A stretch of 64,000 nucleotides of DNA, taken from NCBI RefSeq assembly GCF_009914755.1, contig NC_060933.1, one strand, 5' to 3'. Position numbers and translations under genes: made by a program. Position 1 is the first letter of the stretch. Every line of letters begins with the position of its first letter. The notes beneath the pieces are model-generated. The model worked only from the letters and a program-made list of their open reading frames with translations. It was not told where the DNA came from and made no database searches. This document shows positions 16,641-50,100 of this stretch, in pieces. The DNA comes from the human T2T-CHM13v2.0 reference genome, Homo sapiens.

Positions 16641-16649
16641 TCCAGTCCA

Positions 16650-25600: not shown

Positions 25601-28600
25601 TTCCATTCCATTCCATTCCATTCCATTCCATTCCATTCTATTCCATTCCATTCCATTCCATTGCAATCGAGTTGATTCCATTTGATTCCATTCCATTCCG
25701 TTCCGGATGATTCCATTCCATTCCATTCTATTCCATTCCATTCCCGTGCAGTCGGGTTGATTCCATTCCATTCCATTCTATTCCATTCTATTCCATTCCA
25801 TTCCGTTCCATTCCATTCCATTCCATTCTATTCGGGTTAATTGCATTCCATTCCATTCCATTCCATTCCATTCCATTCCAATCGAGTTGATTCCATTCCA
25901 TTCCATTCCATTCCATTCCACTCCATTCCAGTCCTTTCCATTCCATTACACTCGGGTTGATTCCATTCTATTCCTTTCTATTCCATTCCATTCCATTGCA
26001 ATCGAGTTGATTCCATTGCTTTGCATTCCATTCCATTCCATTCCATTCCGGATGATTCCATTCCACTGCATTCCATTCCATTCCATTCCCCTGCACTCGG
26101 GTTGATTCCATTCCATTCCACTCCATTCCATTCCATTCCATTCCATTCCATTTTATTCGGGTTAATTCCATTCCATTCCATTCCATTCCATTCCATTCCA
26201 TTCCATTCCATTACAATCGAGTTGTTTCCATTCCATTCCATTCCATTCCATTCCATTCCATTCCATTCCATTCCATTGCAATCGAGTTGATTCCATTCCA
26301 TTTCATTCCATTCCATTCTATTACATTCCATTCCAATCGAGTTGATTCCATTCGATTTCATTGCATTCCATTCCATTCCATTCCATTCCAGTCCTTTCCA
26401 TTCCATTCCACTCGGGTTGATTCCATTCTATTAGTTTCCATTCCATTCCATTCTCTTCCATTCCACTCTGGGTGATTCCATTCCTTTCCATTCCACTCGA
26501 ATACATTCCCTCCTATTCTACTCGGAACGATTCCATTCCATTCCATTCCATTCCATTCCATTCCATTCCATTCCATTCCATTCCATTCCATTTCGTTCCA
26601 TTCCATTCTGTTCCGTATCATTCCATTCCATTCCATTCCATTCCCTTCCATTCCATTCCATTACATTCCACTCGTGTTGATTCCATTCCTTTCCATTCCA
26701 TTCGGTTTGAAGGCATTCCATTCCATTCCATTCCATTCGATTCCATTCCATTGTACTCGGGTTGATTCTATTCCATTGCATTCCATTCCATTCCAATCCG
26801 TTGCATTCCATTCCATTACATTCGGATTGATTCTATTCAACTCCCTTACTCTCCATTACATTCCATTCCATTCGGGTTGTTCCATTCCATTCCATTCCAT
26901 TCCACTCCATTCCATTGCACTCGGGTTGATTCCATTCCATTCCATTCCATTCCATTCCATTCCGGATGATTCCGTTCCATTGCATTCCGTTCCATTACAT
27001 TCCCCTGCACTCGCGTTGATTCCACTCCATTCCATTCCATTCCATTCCATTCAATTCCATTCCATTACAATTCGTTCCATTCCATTCTATTCCGTACCAT
27101 TCCATTCCATTCCATACCATTCCATTCCATTCCATTCCATTCCATTCCGTTCCGTTCCATTCCGTTCCATTCCATTCCATTCCATTCCATTCCATTGCAA
27201 TCGAGTTGAATCCATTGCATTTCATTCCATTCCATTCCATTCCATTCCATTCCGGAAGATTCCATTCCATTGCATTCCATTCCATTCCATTCCCCTGCAC
27301 TCGCGTTGATTCCATTCCATTCCATTCCATTCCATTGCATTCCGTTCCGTTCCGTTCCATTTCATTCCATTCCATTGCATTCCATTCCGTTCCCTTCCAT
27401 TCCATTCCATTCCATTCTATTCGGGTTAATTCCATTCCATTCCATTCGATTGCAATCGAGTTGATTCCATTCCATTCCATTCTATTCCGTTCCGGATGAT
27501 TCCATTCTATTGCATTCCATTCCATTCCATTCCCCTGCAGTCGGGTTGATTCCATTCCATTCCATTCCATTCCATTCCGTTCCATTCCATTCCATTCCAT
27601 TCTATTCGTGTTAATTCCATTCCATTCCTTTCCATTCCATTCCATTCCATTCCAATCGAGTTGATTCCATTCCATTCCATTCCATTCCATTCCACTCCAT
27701 TCCAGTCCTTTCCATTCCATTACACTCGGGTTGATTCCGTTCTATTCCTTTCCATTCCATTCCATTCCATTGCAATCGAGTTGATTCCATTGCTTTGCAT
27801 TCCATTCCATTCCATTCCATTCCGGATGATTCCATTCCATTGCATTCCATTCCATTCCATTCCCCTGCACTCGGGTTGATTGCATTCCATTCCACTCCAT
27901 TCCGTTCCATTCTAGTCCATTCCATTGTATTCGGGTTAATTCCATTCCATTCCATTCCATTCCATTCCCTTACAATGTAGTTGATTCCATTCAATTCCAT
28001 TCCATTCCATTCCATTCCAGTCCTTTCCATTCCATTCCACTCGTGTTGATTCCATTCTATTAGTTTCCATTCCATTCCATTCCCTTCCATTCCAATCTGG
28101 TTGATTCCATTCCTTTCCATTCCACTCGAATACATTCCCTCCTATTCCACTCAGAACTATTCCATTCCATTCCATTCCATTCCATTCCATTCCATTCCAT
28201 TCCAGTTCGTTCCATTCCATTCTATTCCGTACCATTCTATTCCATTCCATTCCTTTCCATTCCATTCCATTCCACTCGTGGTGATTCCATTCCTTTCCAT
28301 TCCATTCGGTTTGAAGGCATTCCATTCCATTCAATTCCATTCCATTCCATTCCATTCCATTCCATTCCATTCCATTGTACTCGAGTTGATTCCATTCCAT
28401 TGCATTCAATTCCATTCCATTCCATTCCATTGTACTCGAGTTGATTCCATTCCATTGCATTCCATTCCATTCCATTCCATTTCATTCCGTTGCATTCCAT
28501 TCCTTTACATTCGGATTGATTCTATTCAACTCCCTTACTCTCCATTACATTACATTCCATTCGGGTTGTTCCATTCCATTCCATTCCATTCCACTCCATT

Positions 28601-31600
28601 CCATTGCACTCGGGTTGATTCCATTCCATTCCATTCCATTCCATTCCATTGCGGATGATTCTATTCCATTGCATTCCGTTCCATTACATTCCCCTGCACT
28701 CGCGTTGATTCCATTCCATTGCATTCCATTCCATTCCATTCAATTCCATTCCATTGCAATTCGTTCCACTGCATTCTATTCCGTACCATTCCATTCCATT
28801 CCATACCATTCCATTCCATTCCATTCCATTCCGTTCCGTTCTGTTCCTTTCCATTCCATTCCATTCTATTCGGATTAATTCCATTCCATTCCATTCCATT
28901 CCATTCTATTCCATTCCATTGCAATCGAGTTGAATCCATTGCATTTCATTCCATTCCATTCCATTCCATTCCATTCCATTCCGGAAGATTCCATTCCATT
29001 GCATTCCATTCCATTCCATTCCCCTGTACTCGCGTTGATTCCATTCCATTCCATTCCATTCCATTCCATTCCGTTCCGTTCAATTCCATTCCATTCCATT
29101 CCATTCCATTCCATTCCATTCCATTCCATTCCGTTCCGTTCCATTCCATTCCATTCCATTCTATTCGGGTTAATTCCATTCCATTCCATTCGATTGCAAT
29201 CGAGTTGATTCCATTCCATTCCATTCCATTCCAGTCCTTTCCATTCCATTCCACTCGGGTTGATTCCATTCTATTAGTTTCCATTCCGTTCCATTCCCTT
29301 CCATTCCACTCTGGTTGATTCCATTCCTTTCCATTACACTCGAATACTTTCCCTCCTATTCCACTCGGAACCATTCCATTCCATTCCATTCCATTCCATT
29401 CCATTCCATTCCATTCCATTTCGTTCCATTCCATTCTATTCCGTATCATTCCATTCCTTTCCATTCCATTCCATTCCATTCCATTCCATTGTACTCCGGT
29501 TGATTCCATTCCATTGCATTCCATTCCATTCCATTCCATTCCATTCCGTTGCATTCCATTCCATTACATTCGGATTGATTCTATTCAACTCCCTTACTCT
29601 CCATTACATTCCATTCCATTCGGGTTGTTCCCTTCCATTGCATTCCATTACACTCCATTCCATTGCACTCGGGTTGATTCCATTCCATTCCATTCCATTC
29701 CATTCCATTCCGGATGATTCCATTCCATTGCATTCCGTTCCATTACATTCCCCTGCACTCGCGTTGATTCCATTCCTTTCCATTCCATTCCATTCAATTT
29801 CATTCCATTACAATTCGTTCCATTCCATTCTATGCCGTACCATTCCATTCCATTCCATTCCAATCGAGTTGATTCCATTCCATTCCATTCCATTCCATTC
29901 CACTCCATTCCAGTCCTTTCCATTCCATTCCACTCGGGTTGATTCCAATGTATTCCTTTCCATTCCATTCCATTCCATTGCATTCCGTTCCATTACATTC
30001 CCCTTCACTCACGTTGATTCCATTCCATTCCATTCCATTCCATTCAATTCCATTCCATTACAATTCGTTCCATTCCATTCTATTCCGTACCATTCCTTTC
30101 CATTCCATTCCAATCGAGTTGATTCCATTCCATTCCATTCCATTCCATTCCACTCCATTCCAGTCCTTTCCATTCCATTCCACTCAGGGTGATTCCAATG
30201 TATTCCTTTCCATTCCATTCCATTCCATTGCAATCGAGTTGATTCCATTGCTTTGCATTCCATTCCATTCCATTCCATTCCGGATGATTCCATTCCATTG
30301 CATTCCATTCCATTCCATTCCCCTGCACTCGGGTTGATTCCATTCCATTCCACTCCATTCCGTACCATTCCATTCCATTCCATTCCATTGTATTCGGGTT
30401 AATTCCATTCCATTCCATTCCATTCCATTCCATTGCAATCGTGTTGATTCCATTCCATTTCATTCCATTCCATTCCATTCCATTCCATTCCAATCGAGTT
30501 GATTCCATTCCATTTCATTCCATTTCATTCCATTCCATTCCATTCCAGTCCTTTCCATTCCATTCCACTGGGGTTGATTCCATTCTATTAGTTTCCATTC
30601 CATTCCATTCTCTTCCATTCCACTCTGGGTGATTCCATTCCTTTCCATTCCACTCGAATACATTCCCTCCTATTCTACTCGGAAAGATTCCATTCCATTC
30701 CATTCCATTCCATTCCATTCCATTCCATTCCATTCCATTACATTCCACTCGTGTTGATTCCATTCCTTTCCATTCCATTCGGTTTGAAGGCATTCCATTC
30801 CATTCCATTCCATTCCATTCCATTCCATTCCATTCCATTGTACTCGGGTTGATTCTATTCCATTGCATTCCATTCCATTCCAATCCGTTGCATTCCATTC
30901 CATTACATTCGGATTGATTCTATTCAACTCCCTTACTCTCCATTACATTCCATTCCATTCGTGTTGTTCCATTCCATTCCATTCCATTCCACTCCATTCC
31001 ATTGCACTCGGGTTGATTCCATTCTATTCCATTCCATTCCATTCCATTCCGGATGATTCCGTTCCATTGCATTCCGTTCCATTACATTCCCCTCCACTCG
31101 CGTTGATTCCATTTCATTCCATTCCATTCCATTCCATTCAATTCCATTCCATTACAATTCGTTCCATTCCATTCTATTCCGTACCATTCCATTCCATTCC
31201 ATACCATTCCATTCCATTCCATTCCATTCCATTCCGTTCCGTTCCATTCCGTTCCATTCCATTCCATTCCATTCCATTCCATTGCAATCGAGTTGAATCC
31301 ATTGTATTTCATTCCATTCCATTCCATTCCACTCCATTCAGGAAGATTCCATTCCATTGCATTCCATTCCATTCCATTCCCCTGCACTCGCGTTGATTCC
31401 ATTCCATTCCATTGCATTCCGTTCCGTTCCGTTCCATTTCATTCCATTCCATTCCATTCCATTCCGTTCCGTTCCATTCCATTCCATTCCATTCTATTCG
31501 GGTTAATTCCATTCCATTCCATTCGATTGCAATCGAGTTGATTCCATTCCATTCCATTCCATTCCGTTCCGGATGATTCCATTCTATTGCATTCCATTCC

Positions 31601-33780
31601 ATTCCATTCCCCTGCAGTCGGGTTGATTCCATTCCATTCCATTGCATTCCATTCCGTTCCATTCCATTCCATTCCATTCTATTCGGGTAAATTCCATTCC
31701 ATTCCTTTCCATTCCATTCCATTCCATTCCAATCGAGTTGATTCCATTCCATTCCATTCCATTCCATTCCACTCCATTCCAGTCCTTTCCATTCCATTAC
31801 ACTCGGGTTGATTCCGTTCTATTCCTTTCCATTCCATTCCATTCCATTGCAATCGAGTTGATTCCATTGCTTTGCATTCCATTCCATTCCATTCCATTAC
31901 GGATGATTCCATTCCATTGCATTCCATTCCATTCCATTCCCCTGCACTCGGGTTGATTCCATTCCATTCCACTCCATTCCGTTCCATTCTAGTCCATTCC
32001 ATTGTATTCGGGTTAATTCCATTCCATTCCATTCCATTCCATTCCATTCCATTACAATGTAGTTGATTCCATTCAATTCCATTCCATTCCATTCCATTCC
32101 ATTCCTTTCCATTCCATTCCACTCGGGTTGATTCCATTCTATTAGTTTCCATTCCATTCCATTCCCTTCCATTCCAATCTGGTTGATTCCATTCCTTTCC
32201 ATTCCACTCGAATACATTCCCTCCTATTCCACTCAGAACGATTCCATTCCATTCCATTCTATTCCATTCCATTCCATTCCATTCCATTCCAGTTCGTTCC
32301 ATTCCATTCTATTCCGTACCATTCTATTCCATTCCATTCCTTTCCATTCCATTCCATTCCACTCGTGGTGATTCCATTCCTTTCCATTCCATTCGGTTTG
32401 AAGGCATTCCATTCCATTCAATTCCATTCCATTTCATTCCATTCCATTCCATTCCATTCCATTCCATTCCATTGTACTCGAGTTGATTCCATTCCATTGC
32501 ATTCGATTCCATTCCATTCCATTCCATTCCGTTGCATTCCATTCCATTACATTCGGATTGATTCTATTCAACTCCCTTACTCTCCATTACATTCCATTCC
32601 ATTCAGGTTGTTCCATTCCATTCCATTCCATTCCACTCCATTCCATTGCACTCGGGTTGATTCCATTCCATTCCATTCCATTCCATTCCATTCCGGATGA
32701 TTCCATTCCATTGCATTCCGTTCCATTACATTCCCCTGCACTCGCGTTGATTCCATTCCATTCCATTCCATTCCATTCCATTCCATTCAATTCCATTCCA
32801 TTGCAATTCGTTCCATTCCATTCTATTCCGTACCATTCCATTCCATTCCATACCATTCCATTCCATTCCATTCCATTCCGTTCCGTTCTGTTCCTTTCCA
32901 TTCCATTCCATTCTATTCGGATTAATTCCATTCCATTCCATTCCATTCCATTCCATTCTATTCCATTCCATTGCAATCGAGTTGTATCCATGGCATTTCA
33001 TTCCATTCCATTCCATTCCATTCCATTCCATTCCATTCCATTCCATTCCGGAAGATTCCATTCCATTCCATTCCATTCCACTCGTGTTGATTCCATTCCT
33101 TTCCATTCCATTCGGTTTGAAGGCATTCCATTCCATTCCATTCCATTCCATTCCATTCCATTCCATTCCATTGTACTCGGGTTGATTCCATTCCATTGCA
33201 TTCCATCCCATTCCATTCCATTCCAATCCGTTGCATTCCATTCCATTACATTCGGATTGATTCTATTCAACTCCCTTACTCTCCATTACATTCCATTCCA
33301 TTCGGGTTGTTCCATACCATTCCATTCCACTCCATTCCATTGCACTCGGGTTGATTCCATTCCTTTCCATTCCATTCCATTCCATTCCGGATGTTTCCAT
33401 TCCATTGCATTCCGTTCCATTACATTCCCCTGCACTCGCGTTGATTCCATTCCATTCCATTCCATTCCATTCCATTCCATTCCATTGCATTACAATTCGT
33501 TCCATTCCATTCTATTCCGTACCATTCCATTCCATTCCATACCATTCCATTCCATTCCATTCCATTCTATTCCATTTCGTTCCATTCCGTTCCATTCCAT
33601 TCCATTCCATTCTATTCGGGTTAATTCCATTCCATTCCATTCCATTCCATTGCATTCCATTCCATTCCAATCTATTCCATTCCATTGCAATCGAGTTGAA
33701 TCCATTGCATTTCATTCCATTCCATTCCATTCAATTCCATTGCAATCGAGTTGAATCTATTGCATTTCATTCCATTCCAT
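16650..33780 (+). repeat. Domain B HSat3 sub-array with irregular 1.2-2.7 kb modules
   Basis: Landmark TCGAATACATTCCCTCCTATT at 18463, 20191, 22872, 24219, 26497, 28126, 29340 (variant), 30654, 32208. Also CGGTTTGAAGGCA and CCAATGTATTCC motifs that are not part of the A unit. Confidence 0.75.
26290..33000 (+). repeat. ~4.1 kb-period segmental duplication inside domain B (about 26.3-28.9 kb vs 30.45-33.0 kb)
   Basis: Private variants recur in order: CTCTGGGTG 26466/30623, TCTAGTCC 27911/31988, TACAATGTAGTTG 27971/32053, TCCAATCTGG 28091/32173 (offsets about 4.08-4.16 kb). Confidence 0.8.
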
Positions 33781-33789
33781 TCCATTCCA

Positions 33790-36700
33790 TTCCATTCCGG
33801 AAGATTCCATTCCATTGCATTCCATTACATTCCATTCCCCTGCACTCGCGTTGATTCCATTCCATTCCATTCCATTCCATTGCATTCCATTGCATTCCAT
33901 TCCCCTGCACTCAGGTTGATTCCATTCCATTCCATTCCATTCCATTCCATTCCATTCCATTCTATTCGCGTTAATTCCATTCCACTCCATTCCATTACAT
34001 TCCATTGCAATCGACTTGATTCCATTCCATTCCATTCCATTCCATTCAAGTCCTTTCCATTCCATTCCACTCGTGTTGATTCCATTTTATTAGTTTCCAT
34101 TCCATTCCATTCCCTTCCATTCCACTCTGGTTGATTCCATTCCTTTCCATTCCACTCGAATTCATTCCCTTCTATTCCACTCGGAATGATTCCATTCTAT
34201 TCCGTTCCATTCCATTCCATTTCGTTCCATTCCATTTTATTCCGTACCATTCCATTCCATTCCATTCCATTCCATTGCATTCCATTCCATTCCATTCCAT
34301 GCCATTCCACTCGGGTTGATTCCATTGCTTTCCATTCCATTTGGGTTGAATCCATTCCATTCCATTCCATTCCATTCCATTCCATTCCATTCCATTCAAT
34401 TGCACTAGGTTTGATTCCATTCCACTGCATTCCATTCCATTCCATTCCATTCCATTCCATTCCATTCCATTCCCCTGCACTCGGGTTCATTCCATTCCAT
34501 TCCATTTACTTCCATTCCATTCCATTCCATTCCATTCCATTCCATGCCATTCCACTCGCGTTGATTCCATTCCCTTCCATTCCATTAGAGTTGAATCCAT
34601 TCCATTCCATTCCATTCCATTATATTCCATTGCACACGGGTTCATTCCATTCCATTCTATTCCATTCCCTTACATTCCATTTCGTTACATTCCATTCTAT
34701 TCCGTACCATTCCATTCCATTCCATTCCATTCCATTCCACTCCATTCCATGCCATTCCACTCGGGTATATTCCATTCCTTTTAATTCCATTCGGGTTGAA
34801 TCCATTCCATTCCATTCCATTCGGTTCCATTACATTGCACTCGGGTTGATTCCATTCCATTCCATTCCATTACATTTCATTCCATTCCATTCCATTCCAT
34901 TTCATTCAATTCCATTCCATTCCATGCCATTCCACTCGTGTTGATTCCATTCCTTTCCATTCCATTCGAGTTGAACCCATTCCATTCCATTCCATTCCAT
35001 TCCATTCCATTCCATTCCGTTCCATTCCATTGCACGCGGGTTCATTCCATTCCATTCCGTTCCATTACATTCCATTCCATTCCATTCCATTCCATTACAT
35101 TCCATTTCGTTCCATTCCATTCTATTCCGTACGATTCCATTGCATTCCATTCCATTCCATTCCTTTCCATTCCATTGAATTCGAGTTGATTCCATTCCAT
35201 TCCGTTCCATTCCATTCCATTCCATTCCGGATGATTCCATTCCACTGCATTCCATTCCATTAAATTCCCCTGCACTTGGAGTGATTCCTTTCCATTCTAT
35301 TCCATTCCATTCCATTCCATTCCATTCCATTCCATTCCATTCCATTTCATTGCAATCGAGTTGATTCCATTGCATTCCATTCCATTCCATTCCAGTCCTT
35401 TCCATTCCATTCCACTCGGGTTGATTCCATTCTATTCCTTTCCATTCCATTCAATTCCATTCCATTCCACTCTGGTTGATACCATTCCTCTTCATTCCAC
35501 TCGAAAACATTCCCTTCTATTCCACTCGGAATGATTCCATTCCATTCCATTCCATTCCATTCCATTCCATTCCATTCCGTTTCGTTCCATTACATTCTAT
35601 TCCGTACCATTCAACTCCATTCCATTCCATTCCATTCCATGCCATTCCTCTCGGGTTGATTCCATTCCTTTCCATTCCATTCGGGTTGAATCCATTCCAT
35701 TCCATTCCTTTCCATTCCATTCCATTCCATTGCACTCGGGTTGATTCCATTCCATTCCATTCCATTCCATTCCATTCCATTTCCTTCCATTCCATTCCAT
35801 TCCATTCCGTTCCATGCCATTCCACTCGGGTTGATTCCATTCCTTTCCATTCCATTCGAGTTGAATCCATTCCATTCCATTATATTCCATTCCATTCTAT
35901 TCCATTCCATTCCTTTCCATTCCATTCAATTCCATTCTATTCCGGTTAATTCCATTCCATTCCATTCCATTCCATTCCATTCCATTTCATTGCAATCGAG
36001 TTGATTCCATTGCATTCCATTCCATTCCATTCCAGTCCTTTCCATTCCATTCCACTCGGGTTGATTCCATTCTATTCCTTTCCATTACATTCGATTGCAT
36101 TCCATTCCACTCGATTCCATTCCATTCCACTCTGGTTGATTCCATTCCTTTTCATTCCACTCGAAAACATTCCCTTCTATTCCACTCGGAATGATTCCAT
36201 TCCATTCCATTCCATTCCATTCCATTCCATTCCGTTTCGTTCCATTACATTCTATTCCGTACCATTCCACTCCATTCCATTCCATTCCATTCCATGCCAT
36301 TCCTCTCGGGTTGATTCCATTCCTTTCCATTCCATTCGGGTTGAGTCCATTCCATTCCATTCCTTTCCATTCCATTCCATTCCATTGCACTCGGGTTGAT
36401 TCCATTCCATTCCATTCCGTTCCATTCCGGATGACTCCATTCCATTGCATTCCATTCCATTCCATTACCCTGCACTCGGTTTCATTACATTCCATTCCAT
36501 TCACTTCCATTCCATTCCATTCCATTCCATTCCATTCCATTCCATTCCATTCCATTCCATTCCATTTCAATCGAGTTGATTCCATTCCATTCCATTCCAT
36601 TCCATTCAATTCCGAATGATGTCATTCCATTGCCTTCCATTCCATTCCATTCCCCTGCACTCGGGTTGATTCCATTCCATTCCATTCCATCCCATTCCAT

Positions 36701-37690
36701 TCCATTCCATTCCATTCCATTTCGTTCCATTCCATTCTATTCCGTACCATTCCATTCCATTCCATTCCATTCCCTTCCATTCCATTCCATTTCCTTCCAT
36801 TCCATTCCATTCCATTCCATTCCATTCCATTCCATTCCATTCTATTAGGGTTAATTCCATTCCATTCCATTCCATTCCATGCCATTCCACTCGGGTTGAT
36901 TCCATTCCTTTCCATTCCATTCGAGTTGAATCCATTCCATTCCATTCCATTCCATTCCATTCCATTGCACACGGGTTCATTTCATTCCATTCCATTCCAT
37001 TCCATTTCGTTCCATTCCATTCTATTCCATACCATTCCATTCCATTCCATTCCATTAGACTCCATTCCATGCCATTCCACTCGGTTTTATTCCATTCGTT
37101 TCCATTCCATTCGGGTTGAATCCATTGCATTCCATTCCATTCGATTCCATTACATTGCACTCGTGTTGTTTCCATTCCATTCCATTCCATTCCATTCCAT
37201 TCCATTCCATTCCATTCCATGCCAATCCACTCGGGTTGATTCCATTCCTTTCCATTCCATTCGAGTTGAATCCATTCCAATCCATTCCATTCCATTCGAT
37301 TCCATTCCATTGCACACGGGTTCATTCCATTCTATTCCATTCCATTCCATTCCATTCCATTCCATTTCGTTCCATTCCATTCTATTCCGTACCATTCCAT
37401 TCCATTCCATTCCATTCCATTCCACTCCACTTCATGCCATTCCACTCGGGTTTATTCCATTCCTTTCCATTCCATTCGGGTTGAATCCATTCCATTCCAT
37501 TCCATTCCATTCGATTCCATTACTTTGCACTCGGGTTGATTCCATTCCATTCCATTCCATTCCATTCCACTCCATTCCATGCCATTCCACGCGGGTTTAT
37601 TCCATTCCTTTCCATTCCATTCGTGTTGAATCCATTCCATTCCATTCCATTCCATTCGATTCCATTACACTGCACTCGTGTTGATTCCAT
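33790..37690 (+). repeat. Return of domain A: a further partial A-unit copy about 21.3-21.65 kb downstream of 12.1-15.9 kb
   Basis: TCAAGTCCTT 12411/34046, TTGGAGTG 13661/35276, TCGAAAAC 14881/36161, TAGACT 15741/37056. The final ~480 bp matches 10.6-11.1 kb (ACTCCACTTC 10831/37424). Confidence 0.8.
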
Positions 37691-39058
37691 TCCATTCCGT
37701 TCCATTCCATTCCATTCCATTCCATTTCATTCCATTCCATTCTATTCTGTACCATTCCATTCCATTCCATTCCATTCCATTCCATGCCATTCCACTCGGG
37801 TTGATTCCATTGCTTTCCATTCCATTTGAGTTGAATCCAATCCATTCCATTCCATTCCATTCCATTCCATTCCATTCCATTCCATTGCACTAGGTTTGAT
37901 TCCATTCCACTGCATTCCATTCCATTCCCTTCCGTTCCATTCCATTCCATTACATTCGGATTGATTGTATTCAATTCCCTTACACTCCATTACATTCCAT
38001 TCCATTCGGGTTGTTTCCATTCCATTACATTCCATTCCACTCCATTCCATTGCACTCAGGTTGATTCCATTCCATTCCATTCCATTCCATTCCATTTCGT
38101 TCCTTTGCACTCGGGTTGATTCCATTCCATTCCCTGCCATTCCATTTCATTCCATTCCATTCCATTCCATTCCATTCCATTCCATTCCATTCCATTCCTC
38201 TGCATTCTATTGCACTCGGGTTGATTGATTCCATTCCATTGCATTCCATTCCATTCCATTCGATTCCATTCCATTCTGTTCAGGTTAATTCCATTCCATT
38301 CCATTCCCTTCCATTCCATTCCATTCCATTCCATCCCATTGCAATCGAGGTGATTCCATTGCATTCCATTCCATTCCATTCCATTGCATTCCATTCCATT
38401 GCATTCCCCTGCACTCAGATTGATTCCATTCCATTCCTTTCCATTCCATTCCGTTCCATTCCTTTCCATTCCATTCTATTTGCGTTAATTCCGTTCCATT
38501 CCATTCCATTACATTCCTTTGCAATCGAGTTGATTCCATTCCATTCCGTTCCATTCCATTCCATTCCATTCCATTCCATTCCATTCCATGCCATTCCACT
38601 CGGGTTGATTCCATTCCTTTCCATTCCATTCGAGTTGAATCCATTCCATTCCATTCTATTCCATTCGATTCCATTCCATTGCTCACGTGTTCATTCCATT
38701 CCATTCCATTCCATTCCATTCCATTCCATTCCATTTCGTTCCATTCCATTCTCTTCCGTAGTATTCCATTCCATTCCATTCCACTCCATTCCATGCCATT
38801 TCACTCGGGTTTATTCCATTCCTTTCCATTCCATTCGGGTTGAATTCATTCCATTCCATTCCATTCCATTCCATTCAATTCCATTACATTGCACTCGGGT
38901 TGATTCCATTCCATTCCATTCCATTTCAATCCATTCCCTTCCATTCCATTTCTTTCCATTCCATTCCATTCCATTCCATTCCATTCCATTCCATGCCATT
39001 CCACTCGGGTTGATTCCATTCCTTTCCATTCCATTCTAGTTGAACCCATTCCATTCCA

Positions 39059-39100
39059 TTCCATTCCATTCCATTGCACACGGAATGGAATGGAATGGAA
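39059..39100. other. Inversion breakpoint within the satellite array (CATTC to GGAAT switch)
   Basis: The sequence reads ...ccattccattccattGCACACGGaatggaatggaatggaa... The left motif TGCACACGG(GTTCATT) is truncated after ACGG (39080-39083). An intact paralogue of the left flank lies in reverse complement at ~46775-47130. Confidence 0.97.
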
Positions 39101-42100
39101 ACAACCCGAATGGAATGGAATGTAATGGAGTGTAAGGGAATTGAATACAATCAATCCGAATGTAATGGAATGGAATGGAACGGAATGGAATGGAATGGAA
39201 TGCAGTGGAATGGAATCAAACCTAGTGCAATGGAATGGAATGGAATGGAATGGAATGGAAGGGATTGGATTCAACCCAAATGAAATGGAAAGCAATGGAA
39301 TCAACCCGAGTGGAATGGCACGGAATGGAATGGAATGGAATGGAATGGAATGGAATGGTACAGAATAGAATGGAATGGAACGAAATGGAATGGAATGGAA
39401 TGGAATGGAACGGAATGGAATGGAATCAACTCGATTGCAATGGAATGTAATGTAATGGAATGGAATGGAATTAACGCGAATAGAATGGAATGGAATGTAA
39501 TGGAACGGAATGGAATGGAATGGGATGGAATGGAATCAATCTGAGTGCAGGGGAATGGAATGGAATGGAATGCAATGGAATGGAATGCAATGGAATGGAA
39601 TGCAATGGAATCAACTAGATAGCAATGGGATGGAATGGAATGGAATGGAATGGAAGGCAATGGAATGGAATGGAATTAACCTGAACAGAATGGAATGGAA
39701 TGGAATGGAACGGAATGGAATGGAATGGAATGGAATGGAATGGAATGGATTCAAACCGAATGGAATGGAAAGGAATGGAATAAACCCGAGTGAAATGGCT
39801 TGGAAGGGAATGGAATGGAATGGAATGGTACGGAGTAGAATGGAATGGAACGAAATGGAATGGAATGGAATGGAATGGAATGGAATGGAATGGAATGGAA
39901 TGAACCCGTGAGCAATGGAATGGAATGGAATGGAATGGAATGGAATGGAAGGGAATGGAATGGGTTCAATTCGAATGGAATGGAAAGGAATGGAATCAAC
40001 CCGAGTGCAATGGCATGGAATGGAATGGAATGGAATGGAATGGAATGGATTCAACCCGAATGGAATGGAAAGGAATGGAATAAACCCGAGTGGAATGGCA
40101 TGGAATGGAGTGGAATGGAATGGAATGGAATGGAATGGAATGGAATGGAATGGAATTAACCCTAATAGAATGGAATGGAATGGAATGGAATGGAATGGAA
40201 TGGAATGGAATGGAATGGAATGGAATGGAATGGAATGGAATTAACACGAATAGAATGGAATGGAATGGAATGGAATGGAATGGAATGGAATCAACTCGAT
40301 TTCCTTGGAATGGAATGGAATGGAATGGAATGGAATGGAAGGGAATGGAATGAAATTAACCCGAATAGAATGCAATGGAATGGAATGGAATGGAATGGAA
40401 TGGAATGGAATGGAATAGAATGGAATCCAACCGAGTGCAGTGGAATGGAATGGAATGGAATGCAATGGAATGGAATCATACGGAATGGAATGGAATGGAA
40501 TGGAATGAAATGGAATGGAATGCAATGGAATGGAATGGAATCAACCCGATTGCAATGGAATGGAGTGGAATGGAATGGAATGGAATGGAAACAACCCGAA
40601 TGGAATGGAATGTAATGGAGAGTAAGGGAATTGAATAGAATCAATACGAATGTAATGGAATGGAATGGAACGGAATGGAATGCAATGGAATGGAATGGAA
40701 TGCAATGGAATGGGATCAACCCGAGTGAAATGGAATGGAATCGAAAGGAATGGAATGGAATGGAATGGTTTCAACCAGAATGGAATGGAAAGGAATGGAA
40801 TCAACCCGAGTGGAACGGAATGGAGTGGAATGGAATGGAATGGAATGGAATGGAATGGGTTCAACTCGAATGGAATGGAAAAGAATGGAATCAACCCGAG
40901 TGGAATGGCATGGAATGGAATGGAATGGAATGGAATGGAATGGAATGGAATGGATTCAACCCGAATGGAATGGAAGGGAATGGAATAAACCCGAGTGGAA
41001 TGGCATGGAATGGAGTGGAATGGAATTGAATGGAAGGGAATGGTACGGAATAGAATGGAATGGAACGGAATGGAATGGAATGGAATGGAATGGAATGAAC
41101 CCGTGTGCAATTGAATGGAATCGAATGGAATGGAATGCAATGGAATGGATTCAACTAGAATGGAATGGAAAGGAATGGAATCAACCCGAGTGGAATGGCA
41201 TGGCATGGAATGGAATGGAATGGAATGGAAAGGAATGGTACGGAATAGAATGGAATGGAACGAAATGGAATGGAATGGAATGGAATGGAATGGAATGGAA
41301 TAGAATGGAATGGAATAGAATGGAATCCACCCGATTGCAGGGGAATGGAATGGAATGGAATGGAATGGAATGGAATGGAATGGAATGGATTCAACCCGAA
41401 TGGAATGGAAAGGAATGGAATCAACCCGAGTGGATTGGCATGGAATGGAATGGAATGGAATGGAATGGTAGGGAATAGAATGGAATGGAACGAAATGGAA
41501 TGGAATGGAATGGAATGGAATGGAATGGAATGTAATGGAATGGAATCAACCTGAGTGCAATGGAATGGAGTGGAAGGGAATGTAATGGAACGGAAACAAC
41601 ACGAATGTAATGGAATGTAATGGAGTGTAAGGGAATTGAATACAATCAATCCGAATGTAATGGAATGGAATGGAATGGAATGGAATGGAATGCAATGGAA
41701 TGGAATGGAATGGAATGGAATGGAATGGAATAAAATGGAATGGCAGGGAATGGAATGGAATCAACCCGAGTGCAATGGAATGGAATGGAATGGAATGGAA
41801 TGGAATGGAATGGAATGGATTCAACCCGAATGGAATGGAAAGGAATGGAATAAACCCGAGTGGAATGGCATGGAATGGAATGGAATGGAATAGAATGGTA
41901 CGGAATAGAATGGAATGGAACGAAATGGAATGGAATGGAATGGAATGGAATGGAATGGAATGGAATGGAATCAACCTGAGTGCAATGGAATGGAATGGAA
42001 TGGAATGGAATGGAATGGAATGGAATGGAAACAACCCGAATGGAATGGAATGTAATGGAGTGTAATGAATTGAATACAATCAATCCGAATGGAATGGAAT

Positions 42101-45100
42101 GTAATGGAGTGTAAGGAATTGAATACAATCAATCCGAATGTAATGGAATGGAATGGAACGGAATGGAATGGAATGGAATGCAGTGGAATGGAATCAAACC
42201 TAGTGCAATGGAATGGAATGGAATGGAATGCAATGGAATGGATTGGATTCAACCCAAATGGAATGGAAAGCAATAGAATCAACCCGAGTGGAATGGCATG
42301 GAATGGAATGGAATGGAATGGAATGGAATGGAATGGAATGGTACGGAATAGAATGGAATGGAACGAAATGGAATGGAATGGAATGGAATGGAACGGAATG
42401 GAATGGAATCAACTCGATTGCAATGGAATGTAATGGAATGGAATGGAATTAACGCGAATAGAATGGAATGGAATGGAATGGAACGGAATTGAATGGAATG
42501 GGATGGAATGGAATCAATCTGAGTGCAGGGGAATGGAATGGAATGGAATGCAATGGAATGGAATGGAATGGAATGGAATGCAATGGAATCAACTCGATTG
42601 CAATTGGATGGGATGTAATGGAATGGAATGGAATGGAAGGGAATGGAATGGAATGGAATTAACCTGAACAGAATGGAATGGAATGGAATGGAACGGAATG
42701 GAATGGAAACAACCCGAATGGAATGGAATGTAATGGAGTGTAAGGGAATTGAATAGAATCAATACGAATGTAATGGAATGGAATGGAACGGAATGGAATG
42801 GAATGGAATGGAATGCAATGCAATGGAATGGGATCAACCCGAGTGTAATGGAATGGAATCGAAAGGAATGGAATGGAATGGAATGGTTTCAACCCGAATG
42901 GAATGGAAAGGAATGGAATCATCCAGAGTGGAATGGAATGGAATGGAATGGAATGGAATGGAATGGAATGGAATGGAATGGAATGAACCCGTGTGCAATG
43001 GAATGGAATCGAATGGAATGGAATGGAATGGAATGGATTCAAGTCGAATGGAATGGAAAGGAATGGAATCAACCCGAGTGGAATGGCATGGAATGGAATG
43101 GAATGAAATGGAATGGAATGGAATGGAATGGTACGGAATAGAACGGAATGAAACGAAATGGAATGGAATGGAATGGAATGGAAAGGAATGGAATGGAATC
43201 AACCCGAGTGCAGGGGAATGGAATGGAATGGAAGGCAATGGAATGCAATCATCCGGAATTGAATGGAATGGAATGGAATGGAATGGAATCAACTCGATTG
43301 CAATGGAATGTAATGGAATGCAATGGAATGGAATTAACCCTAATAGAATGGAATGGAATGGAATGGAAGGGAATGGAATGGAATGGAATGGAATGGAATG
43401 GAATTAACCGGAATAGGATGCAATGGAATGGAATGGAATGGAATGGAATGGAATGGAATGAAATGGAATCAAGTCGATTTCAATGGAATGGAATGGAATG
43501 CAATGGAATGGAATGGAATGGAATGGAATGAAATTAACCCGAATAGAATGGAATGGAATGGAATGGAATGGAATAGAATGGAATGGAATAGAGTGGAATG
43601 GAATGGAATGGAATAGAATGGAATCCACCCGAGTGCAGGGGAATGGAATGGAATGGAATGCAATGGAATGGAATCATACGGAATGGAATGGAATGGAATG
43701 GAATGGAATCAACCCGATTGCAATGGAATGGAGTGGAATGGAATGGAATGGAATGGAAACAACCCGAATGGAATGGAATGGAATGGAGTGTAAGGGAATT
43801 GAATAGAATCAATACGAATGTAATGGAATGGAATGGAGTGTAAGGGAAGTGAATAGAATCAATACGAATGTAATGGAATGGAATGGAACGGAATGGAATG
43901 CAATGGAATGGAATGGAATCCAATGGAATGGGTTCAACCCGAGTGCAATGGAATGGAATCGAAAGTAATGGAATGGAATGGAATGGATTCAACACGAATG
44001 GAATGGAAAGGAATGGAATCAACCCGAGTGGAATGGAATTTAATGGAATGGAATGGAATGGAATGCAGTGAAATGGAATCAAACCTAGTGCAATGGAATG
44101 GAATGGAATTGAATGGAATGGAATGGATTAGATTCAACCCAAATGGAATGGAAAGCAATGGAATCAACCCGAGTGGAATGGCATGGCATGGAATGGAATG
44201 GAATGGAATGGAATGGAAAGGTACGGAATAGAATGGAATGGAACGAAATGGAATGGAATGGGATGGAATGGAATGGAATGGAATGGAATGGAATAGAATG
44301 GAATCCACCCGATTACAGGGGAATGGAATGGAATGGAATGCAATGGAATGGAATGGAATGGATTCAACCCGAATGGAATGGAAAGGAAAGGAATAAACCC
44401 GAGTGAAATGGCATGGAAGGGAATGGAATGGAATGCAATGGTACGGAGTAGAATGGAATGGAACGAAATGGAATGGAATGCAATGGAATGGCATGGAATT
44501 GGATGGAATGAACCCGTGAGCAATGGAATGGAATGGAATGGAATGCAATGGAATGGAATGGAATGGGTTCAACTCGAATGGAATGGAAAGGAATGGAATC
44601 AACCCGAGTGGAATGGCATGGAATGGAATGGAATGGAATGGAATTGAATGGAATGGAATGGATTCAACCCGAATGGAATGGATTCAACCCGAATGGAATG
44701 GAAAGGAACGGAATAAACCCGAGTGGAATGGCATGGAATGGAGTGGAATGGAATGGAATGGAAGGGAATGGTATGGAATAGAATGGAATGGAACGAAATG
44801 GAATGGAATGGAATGGAATGGAATGGAATGGAATGGAATGGAATGAACCCGTGTGCAATTGAATGGAATCGAATGGAATGGAATGCAATGGAATGGATTC
44901 AACTAGAATGGAATGGAAAGGAATGGAATCAACCCGAGTGGAATGGCATGGCATGGAATGGAATGGAATGGAATGGAATGGAAAGGTATGGAATAGAATG
45001 GAATGGAACGAAATGGAATGGAATGGAATGGAATGAATGGAATGGAATGGAATAGAATGGAATCCACCCGATTGCAGGGGAATGGAATGGAACGGAATGC

Positions 45101-47279
45101 AATGGAATGGAATGGAATGGATTCAACCCGAATGGAATGGAAAGGAATGGAATCAACCCGAGTGGAATGGCATGGAATGGAATGGAATGGAATGGAATGG
45201 TACGGAATAGAATGGAATGGAACGAAATGGAATGGAATGGAATGGAATGGAATGGAATGGAATGGAATGGAATCAACCTGAGTGCAATGGAATGGAGTGG
45301 AATGGAATGTAATGGAACGGAAACAACCCGAATGGAATGGAATGGAATGGAGTGTAAGGGAATTGAATACAATCAATCCGAATGTAATGGAATGGAATGG
45401 AATGGAATGGAATGGAATGGAATGGAATGAAATGGAATGGCAGGGAATGGAATGGAATCAACCCGAGTGCAAAGGAATGCAATGGAATGGAATGGAATGG
45501 AATGGAATGGAATGGATTCAACCCGAATGGAATGGAAAGGAATGTAATAAACCTGAGTGGAATGGCATGTAATGGAATGGAATGGAATGGAATGGTACGG
45601 AATAGAATGGAATGGAACGAAATGGAATGGAAAGGAATGGAATCAACCTGAGTGCAATGGAATGGAGTGGAATGGAATGTAATGGAATGGAAACAACCCG
45701 AATGGAATGGAATGTAATGGAGTGTAAGGGAATTGAATACAATCAATCCGAATGTAATGGAATGGAATGGAACGGAATGGAATGGAATGGAATGCAGTGG
45801 AATGGAATCAAACCTAGTGCAATGGAATGGAATGGAATGGAATGGAATGGAATGGAATGGATTGGATTCAACCCAAATGGAATGGAAAGCAATGGAATCA
45901 ACCCGAGTGGAATGGCATGGAATGGAATGGAATGGAATGGAATGGAATGGTACAGAATAAAATGGAATGGAACGAAATGGAATGGAATCAACTCGATTGC
46001 AGTGGAATGTAATGGAATGGAATGGAATGGAATTAACGCGAATAGAATGGAATGGAATGTAATGGAACGGAATGGAATGGAATGGGATGGAATGGAATCA
46101 ATCTGAGTGCAGGAGAATGGAATGGAATGGAATGCAATGGAATGGAATGGAATGGAATGGAATGGAATGCAATGGAATCAACTAGATTGCAATGGGTTGG
46201 AATGGAATGGAATGGAATGGAAGGGAATGGAATGGAATGGAATTAACCTGAACAGAATGGAATGGAATGGAATGGAACGGAATGGAATGGAATGGAATGG
46301 AATGGAATGGAATGCAATGCAATGGGATCAACCCGAGAGCAGGGGAATGGAATGGAATGGAATGCAATGGAATGGAATCAATCAACCCGAGTGCAATAGA
46401 ATGCAGTGGAATGGAATGGAATGGAATGGAAATTACCCGAATGGAAAGGAATGTAATGGAGTGTAAGGGAATTAAAAAGAATCAATCCGAATGTAATGGA
46501 ATGGAATGGAACGGAATGGAATGGAATGGAATGGAATGGAATGGAATGAAATTGAATGGCATGGAATGGAATGGAATCAACCCGAGTTCAATGGATTGGA
46601 ATCAAATGGAATGGAATGGAATGGAATGGATTCAACCCGAATGGAATGGAAAGGAATGGAATAAACCCGAGTGAAATGGCATGGAAGGGAAAGGAATGGA
46701 ATGGAATGGTAAGGAATAGAATGGAATGGAACGAAATGGAATGGAATGGAATGGAATGGAATGGAATGGAATGGAATGAACCCGTGTGCAATGGAATGGA
46801 ATGGAATGGAATGGAATGGAATGGAAGGGGTTCAACCAGAATGGAATGGAAAGGAATGGAATCAACCCGAGTGGAATGGCATGGAATGGAATGGAATGGA
46901 ATGGAATGAAACGGAATGGAAGGGAATGGATTGAAATGGAATGGAATGGAATGGAATCAACCCGAGTGCAATGTAATGGAATTGAATGGAATGGAATGGA
47001 ATGGAATGGAATGAATTCAACCCGAATGGAATGGAAAGGAATGGAATAAACCCGAGTGGAATGGCATGGAATGGAGTGGAATGGAATGGAATGGAATACT
47101 ACGGAAGAGAATGGAATGGAACGAAATGGAATGGAATGGAATGGAATGGAATGGAATGGAATGGAATGGGTTCAACTCGAATGGAATGGAAAGGAATGGA
47201 ATCAACCCGAGTGGAATGGCATGGAATGGAATGGAATGGAATGGAATGGAATTGAATGGAATGGAATGGAATGGTACGG

Positions 47280-50100
47280 AATAGAATGGAATGGAACGAA
47301 ATGGAATGGAATGGAATGGAATGGAATGGAATGGAATGGAATGGAATGGAATGGAATGGAACGGAATCAACCCGAGTGCAGGGGAATGGAATGGAATGAA
47401 AGGAAATGGAAGGGAATCATCAGGAATTGAATGGAATGGAATGGAATGGAATGGAATGGAATGGAATGAACTCGATTGAAATGGAATGGAATGGAATGGA
47501 ATGGAATGGAATGGAATGGAATTAACCCTAATAGAATGGAATGGAATGGAATGGAATGGAATGGAATGGAATGGAATGGAATGGAATTAACCTGAATAGA
47601 ATGGAATGCATTGGAACGGAATGGAATGGAATGGAATGGAATGGAATGGAATGGAATGGAATGGAATGGAATGGAATGGAATCAACTCGATTTCAATGGA
47701 ATGGAATGGAAAGGAATGGAATGGAATGAAAGGGAATGGAATGGAATGAAATGGAATGGAATGGAATGGAATGAAATTAACCCGAATAGAATGGAATGGA
47801 ATGGCATGGAATGGAATGGAATGGAATGGAATGGAATGGAATGGAATGGAATGGAATGGAATGGAATAGAATGGAATCCACCCGAGTGCAGGGGAATGGA
47901 ATGGAATGGAATGCAATGGAATGGAATCATACGGAAAGGAATGGAATGGAATGGAATGGAATGGATTCAACCCGAATGGAATGGAAAGGAATGGAATCAA
48001 CCCGAGTGGAATGGCATGGAATGGAATGGAATGGAACGGAATGGAATGTTAAGGAATAGAAAGCATGGAACGAAATGGAATGGAATGGAATGAAATGGAA
48101 TGGAATGGAATGGAATCAACCTGACTGCAATGGAATGGAGTGGAATGGAATGTAATGGAATGGAAACAGCCCGAATGGAATGGAATGTAATGGAGTGTAA
48201 GGGAATTGAGTACAATCAGTACGAATGTAATGGAATGGAATGGAACGGAATGGAATGGAATGGAAAGGAATGGAATCAACACGAGTGCAGGGGAATGGAA
48301 TGGAAGGGAATACAATGGAATGGAATCATCCTGAATGGAATGGAATGCAATGGAATGGAATCAATCAACCCGAGTGCAATAGAATGCAGAGGAATGGAAT
48401 GGAATGGAATGGAAAGTACCCGAATGGAATGGAATGTAATTGAGTGTAAGGGAATTAAAAAGAATCAATCCGAATGTAATGGAATTGAACGGAAAGGAAT
48501 GGAATGGAATGGAACGGAATGGAATGGAATGGAATGAAATGGAATGGCATGGAATGGAATGGAATCAACCCGAGTTCAATGGAATGGAATGGAATGGAAT
48601 GGAATGAATTCAACCGGAATGGAATGGAAAGGAATGGAATAAACCCGAGTGAAATGACATGGAAGGGAATGCAATGGAATGGAATGGTAAGGAATAGAAT
48701 GGAATGGAACGAAATGGAATGGAATGGAATGGAATGGAATGGAATGGAATGGAATGGAATGGAATGGAATGGAACGGAATCAACCCGAGTGCAGGGGAAT
48801 GGAATGGAATGAAAGGAAATGGAAGGGAATCATCAGGAATTGAATGGAATGGAATGGAATGGAATGGAATGGAATGGAATGAACTCGATTGAAATGGAAT
48901 GGAATGGAATGGAATGGAATGGAATGGAATGGAATTAACCCTAATAGAATGGAATGGAATGGAATGGAATGGAATGGAATGGAATTGAATGGAATTAACC
49001 TGAATAGAATGGAATGCATTGGAACGGAATGGAATGGAATGGAATGGAATGGAATGGAATGGAATGGAATGGAATCAACTCGATTTCAATGGAATGGAAT
49101 GGAAAGGAATGGAATGGAATGAAAGGGAATGGAATGGAATGAAATGGAATGGAATGGAATGGAATGAAATTAACCCGAATAGAATGGAATGGAATGGCAT
49201 GGAATGGAATGGAATGGAATGGAATGGAATGGAATGGAATGGAATGGAATAGAATGGAATCCACCCGAGTGCAGGGGAATGGAATGGAATGGAATGCAAT
49301 GGAATGGAATCATACGGAAAGGAATGGAATGGAATGGAATGGAATGGATTCAACCCGAATGGAATGGAAAGGAATGGAATCAACCCGAGTGGAATGGCAT
49401 GGAATGGAATGGAATGGAACGGAATGGAATGTTAAGGAATAGAAAGAATGGAACGAAATGGAATGGAATGGAATGAAATGGAATGGAATGGAATGGAATC
49501 AACCTGACTGCAATGGAATGGAGTGGAATGGAATGTAATGGAATGGAAACAGCCCGAATGGAATGGAATGTAATGGAGTGTAAGGGAATTGAGTACAATC
49601 AGTACGAATGTAATGGAATGGAATGGAACGGAATGGAATGGAATGGAAAGGAATGGAATCAACACGAGTGCAGGGGAATGGAATGGAAGGGAATACAATG
49701 GAATGGAATCATCCTGAATGGAATGGAATGCAATGGAATGGAATCAATCAACCCGAGTGCAATAGAATGCAGAGGAATGGAATGGAATGGAATGGAAAGT
49801 ACCCGAATGGAATGGAATGTAATTGAGTGTAAGGGAATTAAAAAGAATCAATCCGAATGTAATGGAATTGAACGGAAAGGAATGGAATGGAATGGAACGG
49901 AATGGAATGGAATGGAATGAAATGGAATGGCATGGAATGGAATGGAATCAACCCGAGTTCAATGGAATGGAATGGAATGGAATGGAATGGATTCAACCGG
50001 AATGGAATGGAAAGGAATGGAATAAACCCGAGTGAAATGACATGGAAGGGAATGCAATGGAATGGAATGGTAAGGAATAGAATGGAATGGAACGAAATGG
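47280..50100 (-). repeat. Recent ~1.4 kb direct tandem duplication
   Basis: ORFs 48100..48537 and 49483..49920 translate identically (offset 1383). Private motifs recur: AGGAAATGGAAGGGAATCATCAGG 47401/48814 and ATTGAGTACAATCAGTACG 48205/49588. Confidence 0.9.

What the first reader, a model, noticed from the sequence alone, without database searches (positions are those of the whole stretch)
39059..39100. Base-resolution inversion breakpoint with possible ACGG microhomology and no inserted sequence
Seen: about 39 kb of CATTC-strand satellite abuts about 25 kb of GGAAT-strand satellite with no foreign DNA. The left flank 38731-39083 matches the reverse complement of ~46781-47130, which continues ...TGCACACGGGTTCATT, so the break falls inside this motif. 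A right-flank-like module at ~42691-42720 is preceded by GAACGGAATG, so ACGG (39080-39083) could come from either parent. Inference: microhomology-mediated joining or template switching. Established: T2T-CHM13 work reported inversions in HSat3 arrays, with very many breakpoints in the chr9 array, so this junction may be one amplified copy.
Basis: partly seen in the sequence, partly recalled or inferred. Interest (0 to 1): 0.8.

Follow-up and report, generated by a model that had tools for sequence, protein, structure and literature searches.

The report
One amplified HSat3 inversion junction, chromosome 9
The strand flip in this chromosome 9 satellite is real and clean to the base, but it is one of about 85 near-identical copies of a single old junction that was spread as the array grew, and the proposed four-base overlap does not hold.

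Summary
The window holds exactly one strand switch. CATTC-type HSat3 runs to 39081-39083 and GGAAT-type HSat3 starts at 39082-39084, with no inserted bases. The left parent is cut inside the motif CATTGCACACGG|GTT: 18 of 18 other copies in the window continue GTT. The right parent is a GGAAT run 13 nt before GGAAACAACCCG. ACGG microhomology is not supported. Of 52 intact right-flank paralogues, 0 have ACGG in register and 49 have ATGG. Only GG (2 bp) is shared, which random joins reach 13.7% of the time.

The junction is not unique. Its 37-mer has 71 exact copies and 85 copies at ≤3 mismatches, all on chr9 52.3-76.4 Mb, 49 forward and 36 reverse. The window's copy is the twin of chr9:58,968,977, with 6032 of 6037 bases identical, inside CHM13's known multi-megabase duplication. 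I located 191 switches in seven junction types, and neighbour order implies at least 217.

This is a known phenomenon (>200 breakpoints published). That a few founder junctions explain most switches did not turn up in print. The founding mechanism is unresolved.

The parts
1..39081 (+). HSat3 block with CATTC-type pentamers on the + strand (the 'a-arm' of junction J1). It continues leftwards outside the window for about 278.6 kb, to the next located switch at chr9:69,324,471-69,324,511.
   Evidence: skew and pentamer counts. L015 and the sampled points are all C-type. J2d lies at L100 about position 2390.
39082..39083 (.). GG, the only bases that both inferred parents share (2-bp overlap). The breakpoint lies within 39081/39082 to 39083/39084.
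   Evidence: Left parent CACACGG|GTT in 18 of 18 other copies. Right parent ...ATGG|AATGG in 49 of 52 intact paralogues. Chance of an overlap of 2 bp or more is 0.137.
39084..64000 (+). HSat3 block with GGAAT-type pentamers on the + strand (the 'b-arm' of J1). L014 shows it continuing to at least chr9:69,638,000. The next located switch is a J2d copy at chr9:69,707,069, 104 kb from J1.
39072..39108 (+). Junction 37-mer of J1. It occurs once in the window. Genome-wide it has 71 exact copies and 85 at ≤3 mismatches, all on chr9.
   Evidence: A 23-mer core finds the same 85 copies.
38964..39203 (+). Core of ±120 nt shared by the sampled J1 copies. The 30 other copies match the window's copy at 96.7-100% on each side (median 99.2%). 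The core includes the linked variant CATTCTAGTTGAACCC.
   Evidence: The variant is in 30 of 31 J1 copies against 9 of 62 intact left paralogues.
39035..39125 (+). Short-spacer inverted repeat made by the head-to-head pentamer runs. As single-stranded DNA it folds into a hairpin.
   Evidence: -30 kcal/mol, z = -8.4, 0 of 200 shuffles fold as well. Any head-to-head HSat3 join would be expected to do this.
37001..38033 (-). Left-arm paralogue of the right flank, in reverse complement. It gives the layout X - Y(1,050 bp) - junction - rc(X).
   Evidence: 83.0% over 1053 columns. Bins of 100 nt match at 99, 97, 94, 93, 91% at first, but same-strand paralogues at 42014, 45676 and 55534 match equally well.
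46781..47757 (-). Nearest intact paralogue in the window of the left flank, with the uncut motif CACACGGGTTCATT.
   Evidence: It falls in the same 99* clade as 26 of 30 J1 left flanks.
42014..43067 (+). Intact same-strand paralogue of the right flank, preceded by ...GGAATGG, not ACGG.

Best explanation
The junction at 39082-39084 is one copy of a single ancestral head-to-head (CATTC to GGAAT) inversion junction of the chr9 HSat3 array, called J1 here.

Founding event (inferred): J1 formed once, by a non-homologous join. One end was a break inside the motif CATTGCACACGG|GTT. The other was a break in a GGAAT run 13 nt before GGAAACAACCCG on the opposite strand. The join had at most a 2-bp (GG) overlap and no inserted bases. 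I lean slightly to plain end joining of two breaks over a replicative template switch, but the junction cannot tell them apart.

Amplification (shown): the junction was then carried along as the array grew by duplication of blocks from about 10 kb to several Mb.

Reorientation (inferred): copies were turned around by recombination between oppositely oriented blocks. Such exchanges reshuffle arms without making new junction sequences.

The window's copy arose in the most recent step, CHM13's multi-megabase 9q12 duplication.
For: Copy number: 71 exact and 85 copies at ≤3 mismatches, 49 forward and 36 reverse, all on chr9 52.34-76.36 Mb. The reversed-pattern control found none.

Shared flanks: 30 of 30 other sampled copies match the window's ±120 nt at 96.7-100%. 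The linked variant CATTCTAGTTGAACCC is in 30 of 31 J1 copies against 9 of 62 intact paralogues. In the tree, 26 of 30 J1 left flanks sit in one 99* clade.

Duplication: there are colinear series of junctions at offsets of about 10.6 Mb (18 J1 pairs) and about 8.74 Mb (11 J1 pairs). The twin at chr9:58,968,977 has 6032 of 6037 bases identical. Tandem units of 9,543 and 21,199 bp are identical at 4901 of 4901 bases and at 99.8%. Nurk et al. [quoted passage not shown]

Break positions.

Other junction types: the two other C-to-G types I found (J3, J4) have only 2 copies each, which are twins in the 10.6-Mb duplication.
Against: Intact paralogues mix into the J1 clade: 10 of its 36 rows are paralogues. 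Four of 30 J1 copies have a different left flank within 400 nt. Monophyly is therefore blurred by exchange within the array.

Likeness to the window's copy ends at very different distances, 400-3000 nt on the left and 100-3000 nt on the right. Arm lengths range from 1.1 to 733 kb and end at any junction type. No single amplification unit can be defined.

None of the four G-to-C families, nor the single-copy J2c, has flanks that fit the predicted reciprocal junction. Identities are 0.73-0.87, which is background. A balanced two-break inversion is therefore not shown.

Counts from the genome search are stated by the tool to be lower bounds.
Confidence: 0.8

Rival explanations
1. The founding event was replicative, a fold-back or template switch. 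A 3' end stopping at ...CACACGG paired its GG with CC about 1.05 kb upstream on the complementary template and copied back. This would make X - Y - rc(X) in one step without a reciprocal junction.
For: The right flank equals the reverse complement of left-arm 37001-38033, with the first 500 nt matching at 91-99%. The X anchor lies 0.65-1.4 kb left of the junction in 14 of 31 sampled copies, and at 2.0 kb in one more. No reciprocal partner was found among the G-to-C types tested.
Against: Same-strand paralogues at 42014, 45676 and 55534 match the right flank as well or better, so rc(X) is not specially close. The arms are not mirrored beyond about 1 kb. The mirror test gives 68-88% per 100 nt, which is background. 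The 2-bp overlap is within chance.
Confidence: 0.35
2. Recurrent formation: the same two sites break and join again and again, so the 85 copies are independent events at a hotspot.
For: Both parent modules are abundant in the array. The head-to-head join is hairpin-prone.
Against: A non-homologous join would not hit the same two bases 85 times. The flanks are 96.7-100% alike over ±120 nt and carry a linked variant that is rare in intact paralogues. The copies lie in colinear duplicated series, and 1-mismatch variants are shared by pairs at fixed offsets. The other C-to-G types found are single events.
Confidence: 0.03
3. Assembly artefact: the strand switch is a misjoin in a hard-to-assemble satellite.
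For: The window lies in the duplicated 9q12 segment, which needed two traversals of a graph loop (PMC9186530, figure legend passage). Reads could not be checked here.
Against: The same junction is assembled in 85 places with differing contexts and both orientations. Orientation switches in this array are reported in other assemblies: about 129 per haplotype (10.64898/2026.09.03.749043, passage) and hundreds across 320 assemblies (10.64898/2026.07.22.740206, passage).
Confidence: 0.02
4. Homologous recombination between inverted repeats (NAHR) created this junction.
For: Oppositely oriented HSat3 blocks are long inverted repeats, so NAHR is expected in this array.
Against: NAHR exchanges within homology and leaves no abrupt strand switch. 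Here the left parent stops mid-motif (18 of 18 others continue GTT) and joins sequence with no likeness beyond GG. NAHR fits the later flips, not the origin.
Confidence: 0.02

Closest known systems
Strand switches ('inversion breakpoints') of the HSat3B5 array on chr9 in T2T-CHM13 (Altemose et al., preprint 10.1101/2021.07.12.452052; section 7 read)
   Same: The window's junction is one of them. My count of at least 217 switches agrees with the published 'over 200'.
   Different: The text I read counts breakpoints but does not give junction sequences or group them into families.
Population surveys of chr9 HSat3 orientation switches (10.64898/2026.09.03.749043; 10.64898/2026.07.22.740206; passages only)
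   Same: They report about 129 switches per haplotype, and a switch number that correlates with array length (r = 0.90).
   Different: [quoted passage not shown] Here 186 of 191 located switches belong to four multi-copy junction families. The correlation with length then follows from copying, not from new events.
Mosaic inversion structure of beta-satellite arrays on acrocentric short arms (Nurk et al. 2022, PMC9186530, passage)
   Same: Many alternating strand blocks inside one satellite array.
   Different: A different satellite family on different chromosomes. I did not test whether its junctions are also few families.
Fold-back inversions and DUP-TRP/INV-DUP rearrangements formed by template switching (recalled from the human structural-variation literature, not from a call)
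   Same: A head-to-head join with 0-4 bp overlap and no insertion. Inverted repeats could drive later rearrangements.
   Different: Mirror-image arms with a short spacer were tested and not found beyond background.

Membership tests
HSat3 satellite, large chr9 (9q12) array | Sequence built of diverged CATTC/GGAAT pentamers with interspersed CAACCCGAGT-type motifs | tested here: met
HSat3 satellite, large chr9 (9q12) array | Location inside the chr9 array | tested here: met
   Window is C9:69564001-69628000 (hub note). All junction copies lie on C9 51.07-76.39 Mb.
HSat3 satellite, large chr9 (9q12) array | Subfamily B5 marker k-mers | not tested
   No marker set was at hand. The subfamily name is taken from the preprint.
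Satellite strand switch (inversion breakpoint) | Abrupt change of repeat strand with satellite on both sides and no other sequence between | tested here: met
Microhomology-mediated junction (MMEJ / MMBIR) | Overlap between the parents longer than random joins give | tested here: not met
   The overlap is GG, 2 bp, with P(2 bp or more) = 0.137. ACGG is in register in 0 of 52 paralogues.
Microhomology-mediated junction (MMEJ / MMBIR) | Templated insertions at the join | tested here: not met
   No inserted bases. Their absence does not exclude the pathway.
Fold-back inverted duplication | The two arms are reverse complements of each other from the junction outwards, with a short spacer | tested here: not met
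   68-88% per 100 nt, which is background, with no mirror diagonal. A 1.05-kb-spacer version is inconclusive.
Balanced two-break inversion | A reciprocal junction whose flanks continue the two cut parents | tested here: inconclusive
   J2a, J2b, J2c and J2d flanks match the predicted continuations only at 0.73-0.87. At least 7 G-to-C switches remain unlocated.
NAHR-derived inversion | Breakpoints lie inside inverted homologous repeats | tested here: not met
   The flanks share only GG at the join.

The most novel reading that the evidence does not exclude
Most strand switches of the 9q12 HSat3 array descend from a handful of founder junctions. J1 alone supplies 85 of at least 108 CATTC-to-GGAAT switches, and three families (52, 29 and 20 copies) supply most of the opposite kind. 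On this reading the array records a number of founding events in the tens at most, not over 200, followed by copying and flipping. The junction k-mers would then be lineage markers that let the growth of the 9qh block, and its size polymorphism, be reconstructed across human and ape assemblies.
Probability: 0.55. Interest if true: 0.6.

Novelty: already known. Interest (0 to 1): 0.45.

Why it matters
The 9q12 HSat3 block is the largest satellite array in the human genome. Its size is polymorphic, and it is the seat of the nuclear stress response (review PMC12771815, passage).

Published work counts its strand switches and treats them as many events. If most are copies of a few junctions, three things follow:
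- The rate of new inversions in this satellite is far lower than the counts suggest.
- The reported correlation of switch number with array length is explained by copying.
- Short junction k-mers become simple markers for tracing duplications in assemblies and in raw reads.

There is also a possible functional angle, which I infer and did not test. Because stress-induced transcripts are reported from one strand (recalled, not from a call), each J1 copy would be a point where the direction of that strand diverges.

Tried and rejected
1. A self-BLAST of the whole window in 1-kb pieces timed out. It was replaced by k-mer diagonals.

2. Simple palindrome about the junction: rejected. No mirror diagonal appears at a coordinate sum of about 78,166, and matches between the arms lie on many diagonals.

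3. J1 plus J2a as the two ends of a 1.1-kb inversion, and J1 plus J2b as the ends of a 3.4-kb inversion. Short motif resemblances at the joins looked promising. However, 350-nt flanks match the predicted continuations only at background level. The same holds for J2d.

4. J2c as the join of a simple 30.76-kb tandem duplication: half supported. Its G side matches the next J1's arm at the same distance (97.1% over 523 nt, ending at the join). The expected upstream copy, however, is on the wrong strand.

5. Mirror-arm test on all junction types: nothing above background. J2b shows patchy 94-98% bins at an offset of 129 nt.

6. The first neighbour-order estimate, that J1 is nearly all C-to-G switches, was too strong. 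Sampling every 34.7 kb found a hidden 38-kb block with other junction types. The estimate was revised.

The journal version of the centromere paper was not held.

8. Parent reconstruction for the J2d overlap (ACTCG, up to 5 bp) rests on one intact paralogue in the window and on the general motif. It was not pursued further.

Full report
THE OBSERVATION

The window is HSat3 throughout and changes strand exactly once. GC skew is negative in all 39 one-kb bins up to 39000 and positive in all 25 bins after it. No 200-bp bin elsewhere carries the opposite pentamer type. The sequence reads ...CCATTCCATTGCACACGG|AATGGAATGGAATGGAAACAACCCG..., with ACGG at 39080-39083. The stretch 38119-39078 aligns to the reverse complement of 46797-47757 at 85.4% over 985 columns, the best non-self hit. 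The last 400 nt match at 94.8%.

WHERE THE BREAK IS

The string CATTGCACACGG occurs 12 times on the + strand, all in the left arm and including the junction, and 7 times on the - strand, all in the right arm. All 18 copies other than the junction continue GTT. Only the junction copy continues AATGG. The left parent therefore reaches 39083 at most.

For the right parent I used the anchor GGAAACAACCCGAATGG. In the window and the fetched loci there are 52 intact copies of this module. The four bases in register with ACGG are ATGG in 49, ATCG in 2, AAGG in 1 and ACGG in 0. The right parent therefore starts at 39082, and the two parents share GG only. Nothing is inserted.

In 400,000 simulated random joins of the two arms, an overlap of 2 bp or more occurred in 13.7%, 3 bp or more in 2.4% and 4 bp or more in 0.66%. 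The observed overlap is within chance. One suggestive point remains: GG dinucleotides occupy only 681 of 39,083 positions on the left arm's + strand.

THE JUNCTION IS MULTI-COPY

The window's own assembly could be searched.
- The 37-mer across the join has 71 exact copies, 44 forward and 27 reverse.
- At up to 3 mismatches it has 85 copies, 49 forward and 36 reverse: 71 exact, 13 with one mismatch and 1 with two.
- All lie on chr9 between 52.34 and 76.36 Mb. The reversed-pattern control found none.
- A 23-mer core with up to 1 mismatch finds the same 85 places, so no variants with a different pentamer number were missed.
- The tool states that its counts are lower bounds.

I fetched 30 of the other 84 copies, from across the array. 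All 30 have a strand switch at the join. Over ±120 nt they match the window's copy at 96.7-100% on each side, with a median of 99.2%. The 62 intact paralogues of each flank match at 85-99.2%, with a median of 96.7%. The variant CATTCTAGTTGAACCC just left of the join is in 30 of 31 J1 copies and in 9 of 62 intact paralogues.

In a FastTree tree of 91 left flanks, 26 of 30 J1 rows fall in one 99* clade. That clade also holds 10 intact paralogues, and 4 J1 copies have a different left flank within 400 nt. Likeness to the window's copy ends at very different distances, 400-3000 nt on the left and 100-3000 nt on the right (a few values of 0 are alignment artefacts, compare). I read this as one origin followed by much exchange within the arms. 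Recurrent formation of an identical non-homologous join is not credible.

HOW THE COPIES SPREAD

Junction positions form colinear series. One has an offset of about 10.58-10.66 Mb (54.09-60.69 against 64.70-71.35 Mb, 18 J1 pairs). Another has an offset of about 8.72-8.77 Mb (52.34-54.09 against 61.08-62.85 Mb, 11 J1 pairs). One-mismatch variants of the 37-mer are shared by exactly such pairs.

The window's copy is the twin of chr9:58,968,977. Of 6037 bases, 6032 are identical, with no mismatches and one 5-bp length difference at window 41924. [quoted passage not shown]

There are also local tandem units. One has a period of 9,543 bp, with 4901 of 4901 bases identical left of the two joins. Another has a period of 21,199 bp at 99.8% identity.

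Forward and reverse copies are intermixed: 47 neighbouring J1 pairs have the same orientation and 37 the opposite. Recombination between oppositely oriented blocks would flip segments without making a new junction sequence. I infer this step and did not show it.

THE OTHER SWITCHES

By reading between J1 copies and by sparse sampling I found six more junction types.

GGAAT-to-CATTC types:
- J2a: 20 copies
- J2b: 29 copies
- J2c: 1 copy
- J2d: 52 copies

CATTC-to-GGAAT types other than J1:
- J3: 2 copies
- J4: 2 copies

Each J3 and J4 pair consists of twins in the 10.6-Mb duplication, so each is effectively a single event.

In all, 191 switches are located, 89 of one polarity and 102 of the other. 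Since polarities must alternate, neighbour order requires at least 7 plus 19 more, giving at least 217. This fits the published 'over 200 inversion breakpoints' (10.1101/2021.07.12.452052, section 7). J1 is thus 85 of at least 108 switches of its polarity.

Hidden pairs of switches are not counted by this method. Sampling every 34.7 kb over 690 kb found one such 38-kb block.

Around the window the order is J2d (69,324,471), a 278.6-kb CATTC arm, J1 (69,603,072), a 104-kb GGAAT arm, then J2d in reverse (69,707,069). J1 arms range from 1.1 to 733 kb and end at any type in either orientation. The array is a mosaic with no fixed unit.

THE FOUNDING EVENT

I could not settle this.

A balanced inversion predicts a reciprocal join whose flanks continue the two cut parents. 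The flanks of J2a, J2b, J2c and J2d match those continuations only at 0.73-0.87, which is background.

A fold-back predicts mirror-image arms. The arms match at 68-88% per 100 nt, also background.

The layout X - 1,050 bp - join - rc(X) exists, and the exact X anchor lies 0.65-1.4 kb upstream in 14 of 31 sampled copies, and at 2.0 kb in one more. However, same-strand paralogues match the right flank equally well.

I lean slightly to simple end joining of two breaks with a 2-bp overlap, and give the replicative template switch 0.35.

As single-stranded DNA the join folds into a hairpin (-30 kcal/mol, z = -8.4). This would be expected of any head-to-head HSat3 join.

WHAT IS KNOWN

The phenomenon is published. 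Beyond the preprint above, one 2026 preprint reports about 129 orientation switches per haplotype on chr9 (passage). [quoted passage not shown]

Searches for HSat3 with inversion, chr9 and breakpoints, HSat3B5, HSat3 with inversion and microhomology, two broader HSat3 searches and 'strand switches' turned up no paper that gives junction sequences or groups them into families. They may contain such an analysis.

VERDICT

The 4-bp microhomology is not supported. The 'amplified copy' guess is right and is the main result. As a feature it is an already known kind and is already counted in print. The family structure of the junctions is the part that may be new.

Noticed in passing
chr9 (G000:C9) 52.34-54.09 against 61.08-62.85 Mb, and 54.09-60.69 against 64.70-71.35 Mb: Two colinear series of junction copies at offsets of about 8.74 Mb and about 10.6 Mb, meaning very large recent duplications inside the array. 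The second matches the published 9qh+ duplication of CHM13. The first was not traced in the papers I read.
   Followed up: partly
L009 about 6030 (C9:70,855,030); L011 about 7880 (C9:52,957,880); L100 about 2390 (C9:69,324,490): Three multi-copy GGAAT-to-CATTC junction families: J2a (20 copies), J2b (29 copies, join at a shared TGCA) and J2d (52 copies, join inside CAACTCG/CACTCGGG with up to 5 shared bases, read from one intact paralogue at window 25217-25250).
   Followed up: partly
L099 about 1830 (C9:69,286,030); L121 60-80 (C9:57,614,470): Two CATTC-to-GGAAT junctions other than J1 (J3 and J4), each with 2 copies that are twins in the 10.6-Mb duplication. Both are short near-palindromes at the join. 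J4 has 16-nt perfectly complementary arms around a short centre.
   Followed up: partly
L009/L010 (C9:70,849,001-70,867,000) and L011-L013 (C9:52,950,001-52,980,000): Tandem units of 9,543 bp and 21,199 bp, each holding one J1 and one J2 join. The left arms are identical at 4901 of 4901 bases and at 99.8%, while the arms right of the two J1 copies are only 85-88% alike.
   Followed up: partly
window, whole: Shared 24-mers and 32-mers show preferred spacings of 3,712, 1,383, 6,603 and about 10,200-10,320 bp, meaning nested long repeat units in both arms.
   Followed up: no
window 17000-23500 against 55000-63000: The longest inverted matches between the two arms lie far from the junction, on several diagonals (coordinate sums of about 76,700-82,800). 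The best paralogues of the J2a and J2b flanks also fall in these stretches.
   Followed up: no
window 41924: The only difference from the twin copy at chr9:58.97 Mb in 6 kb is one 5-bp (single pentamer) length change.
   Followed up: no
L056 about 1280 (C9:64,836,680): Single-copy GGAAT-to-CATTC junction J2c. Its G side is 97.1% like the arm of the next J1 copy at the same 7.0-kb distance, and the likeness stops at the join. The source of its C side was not found.
   Followed up: partly
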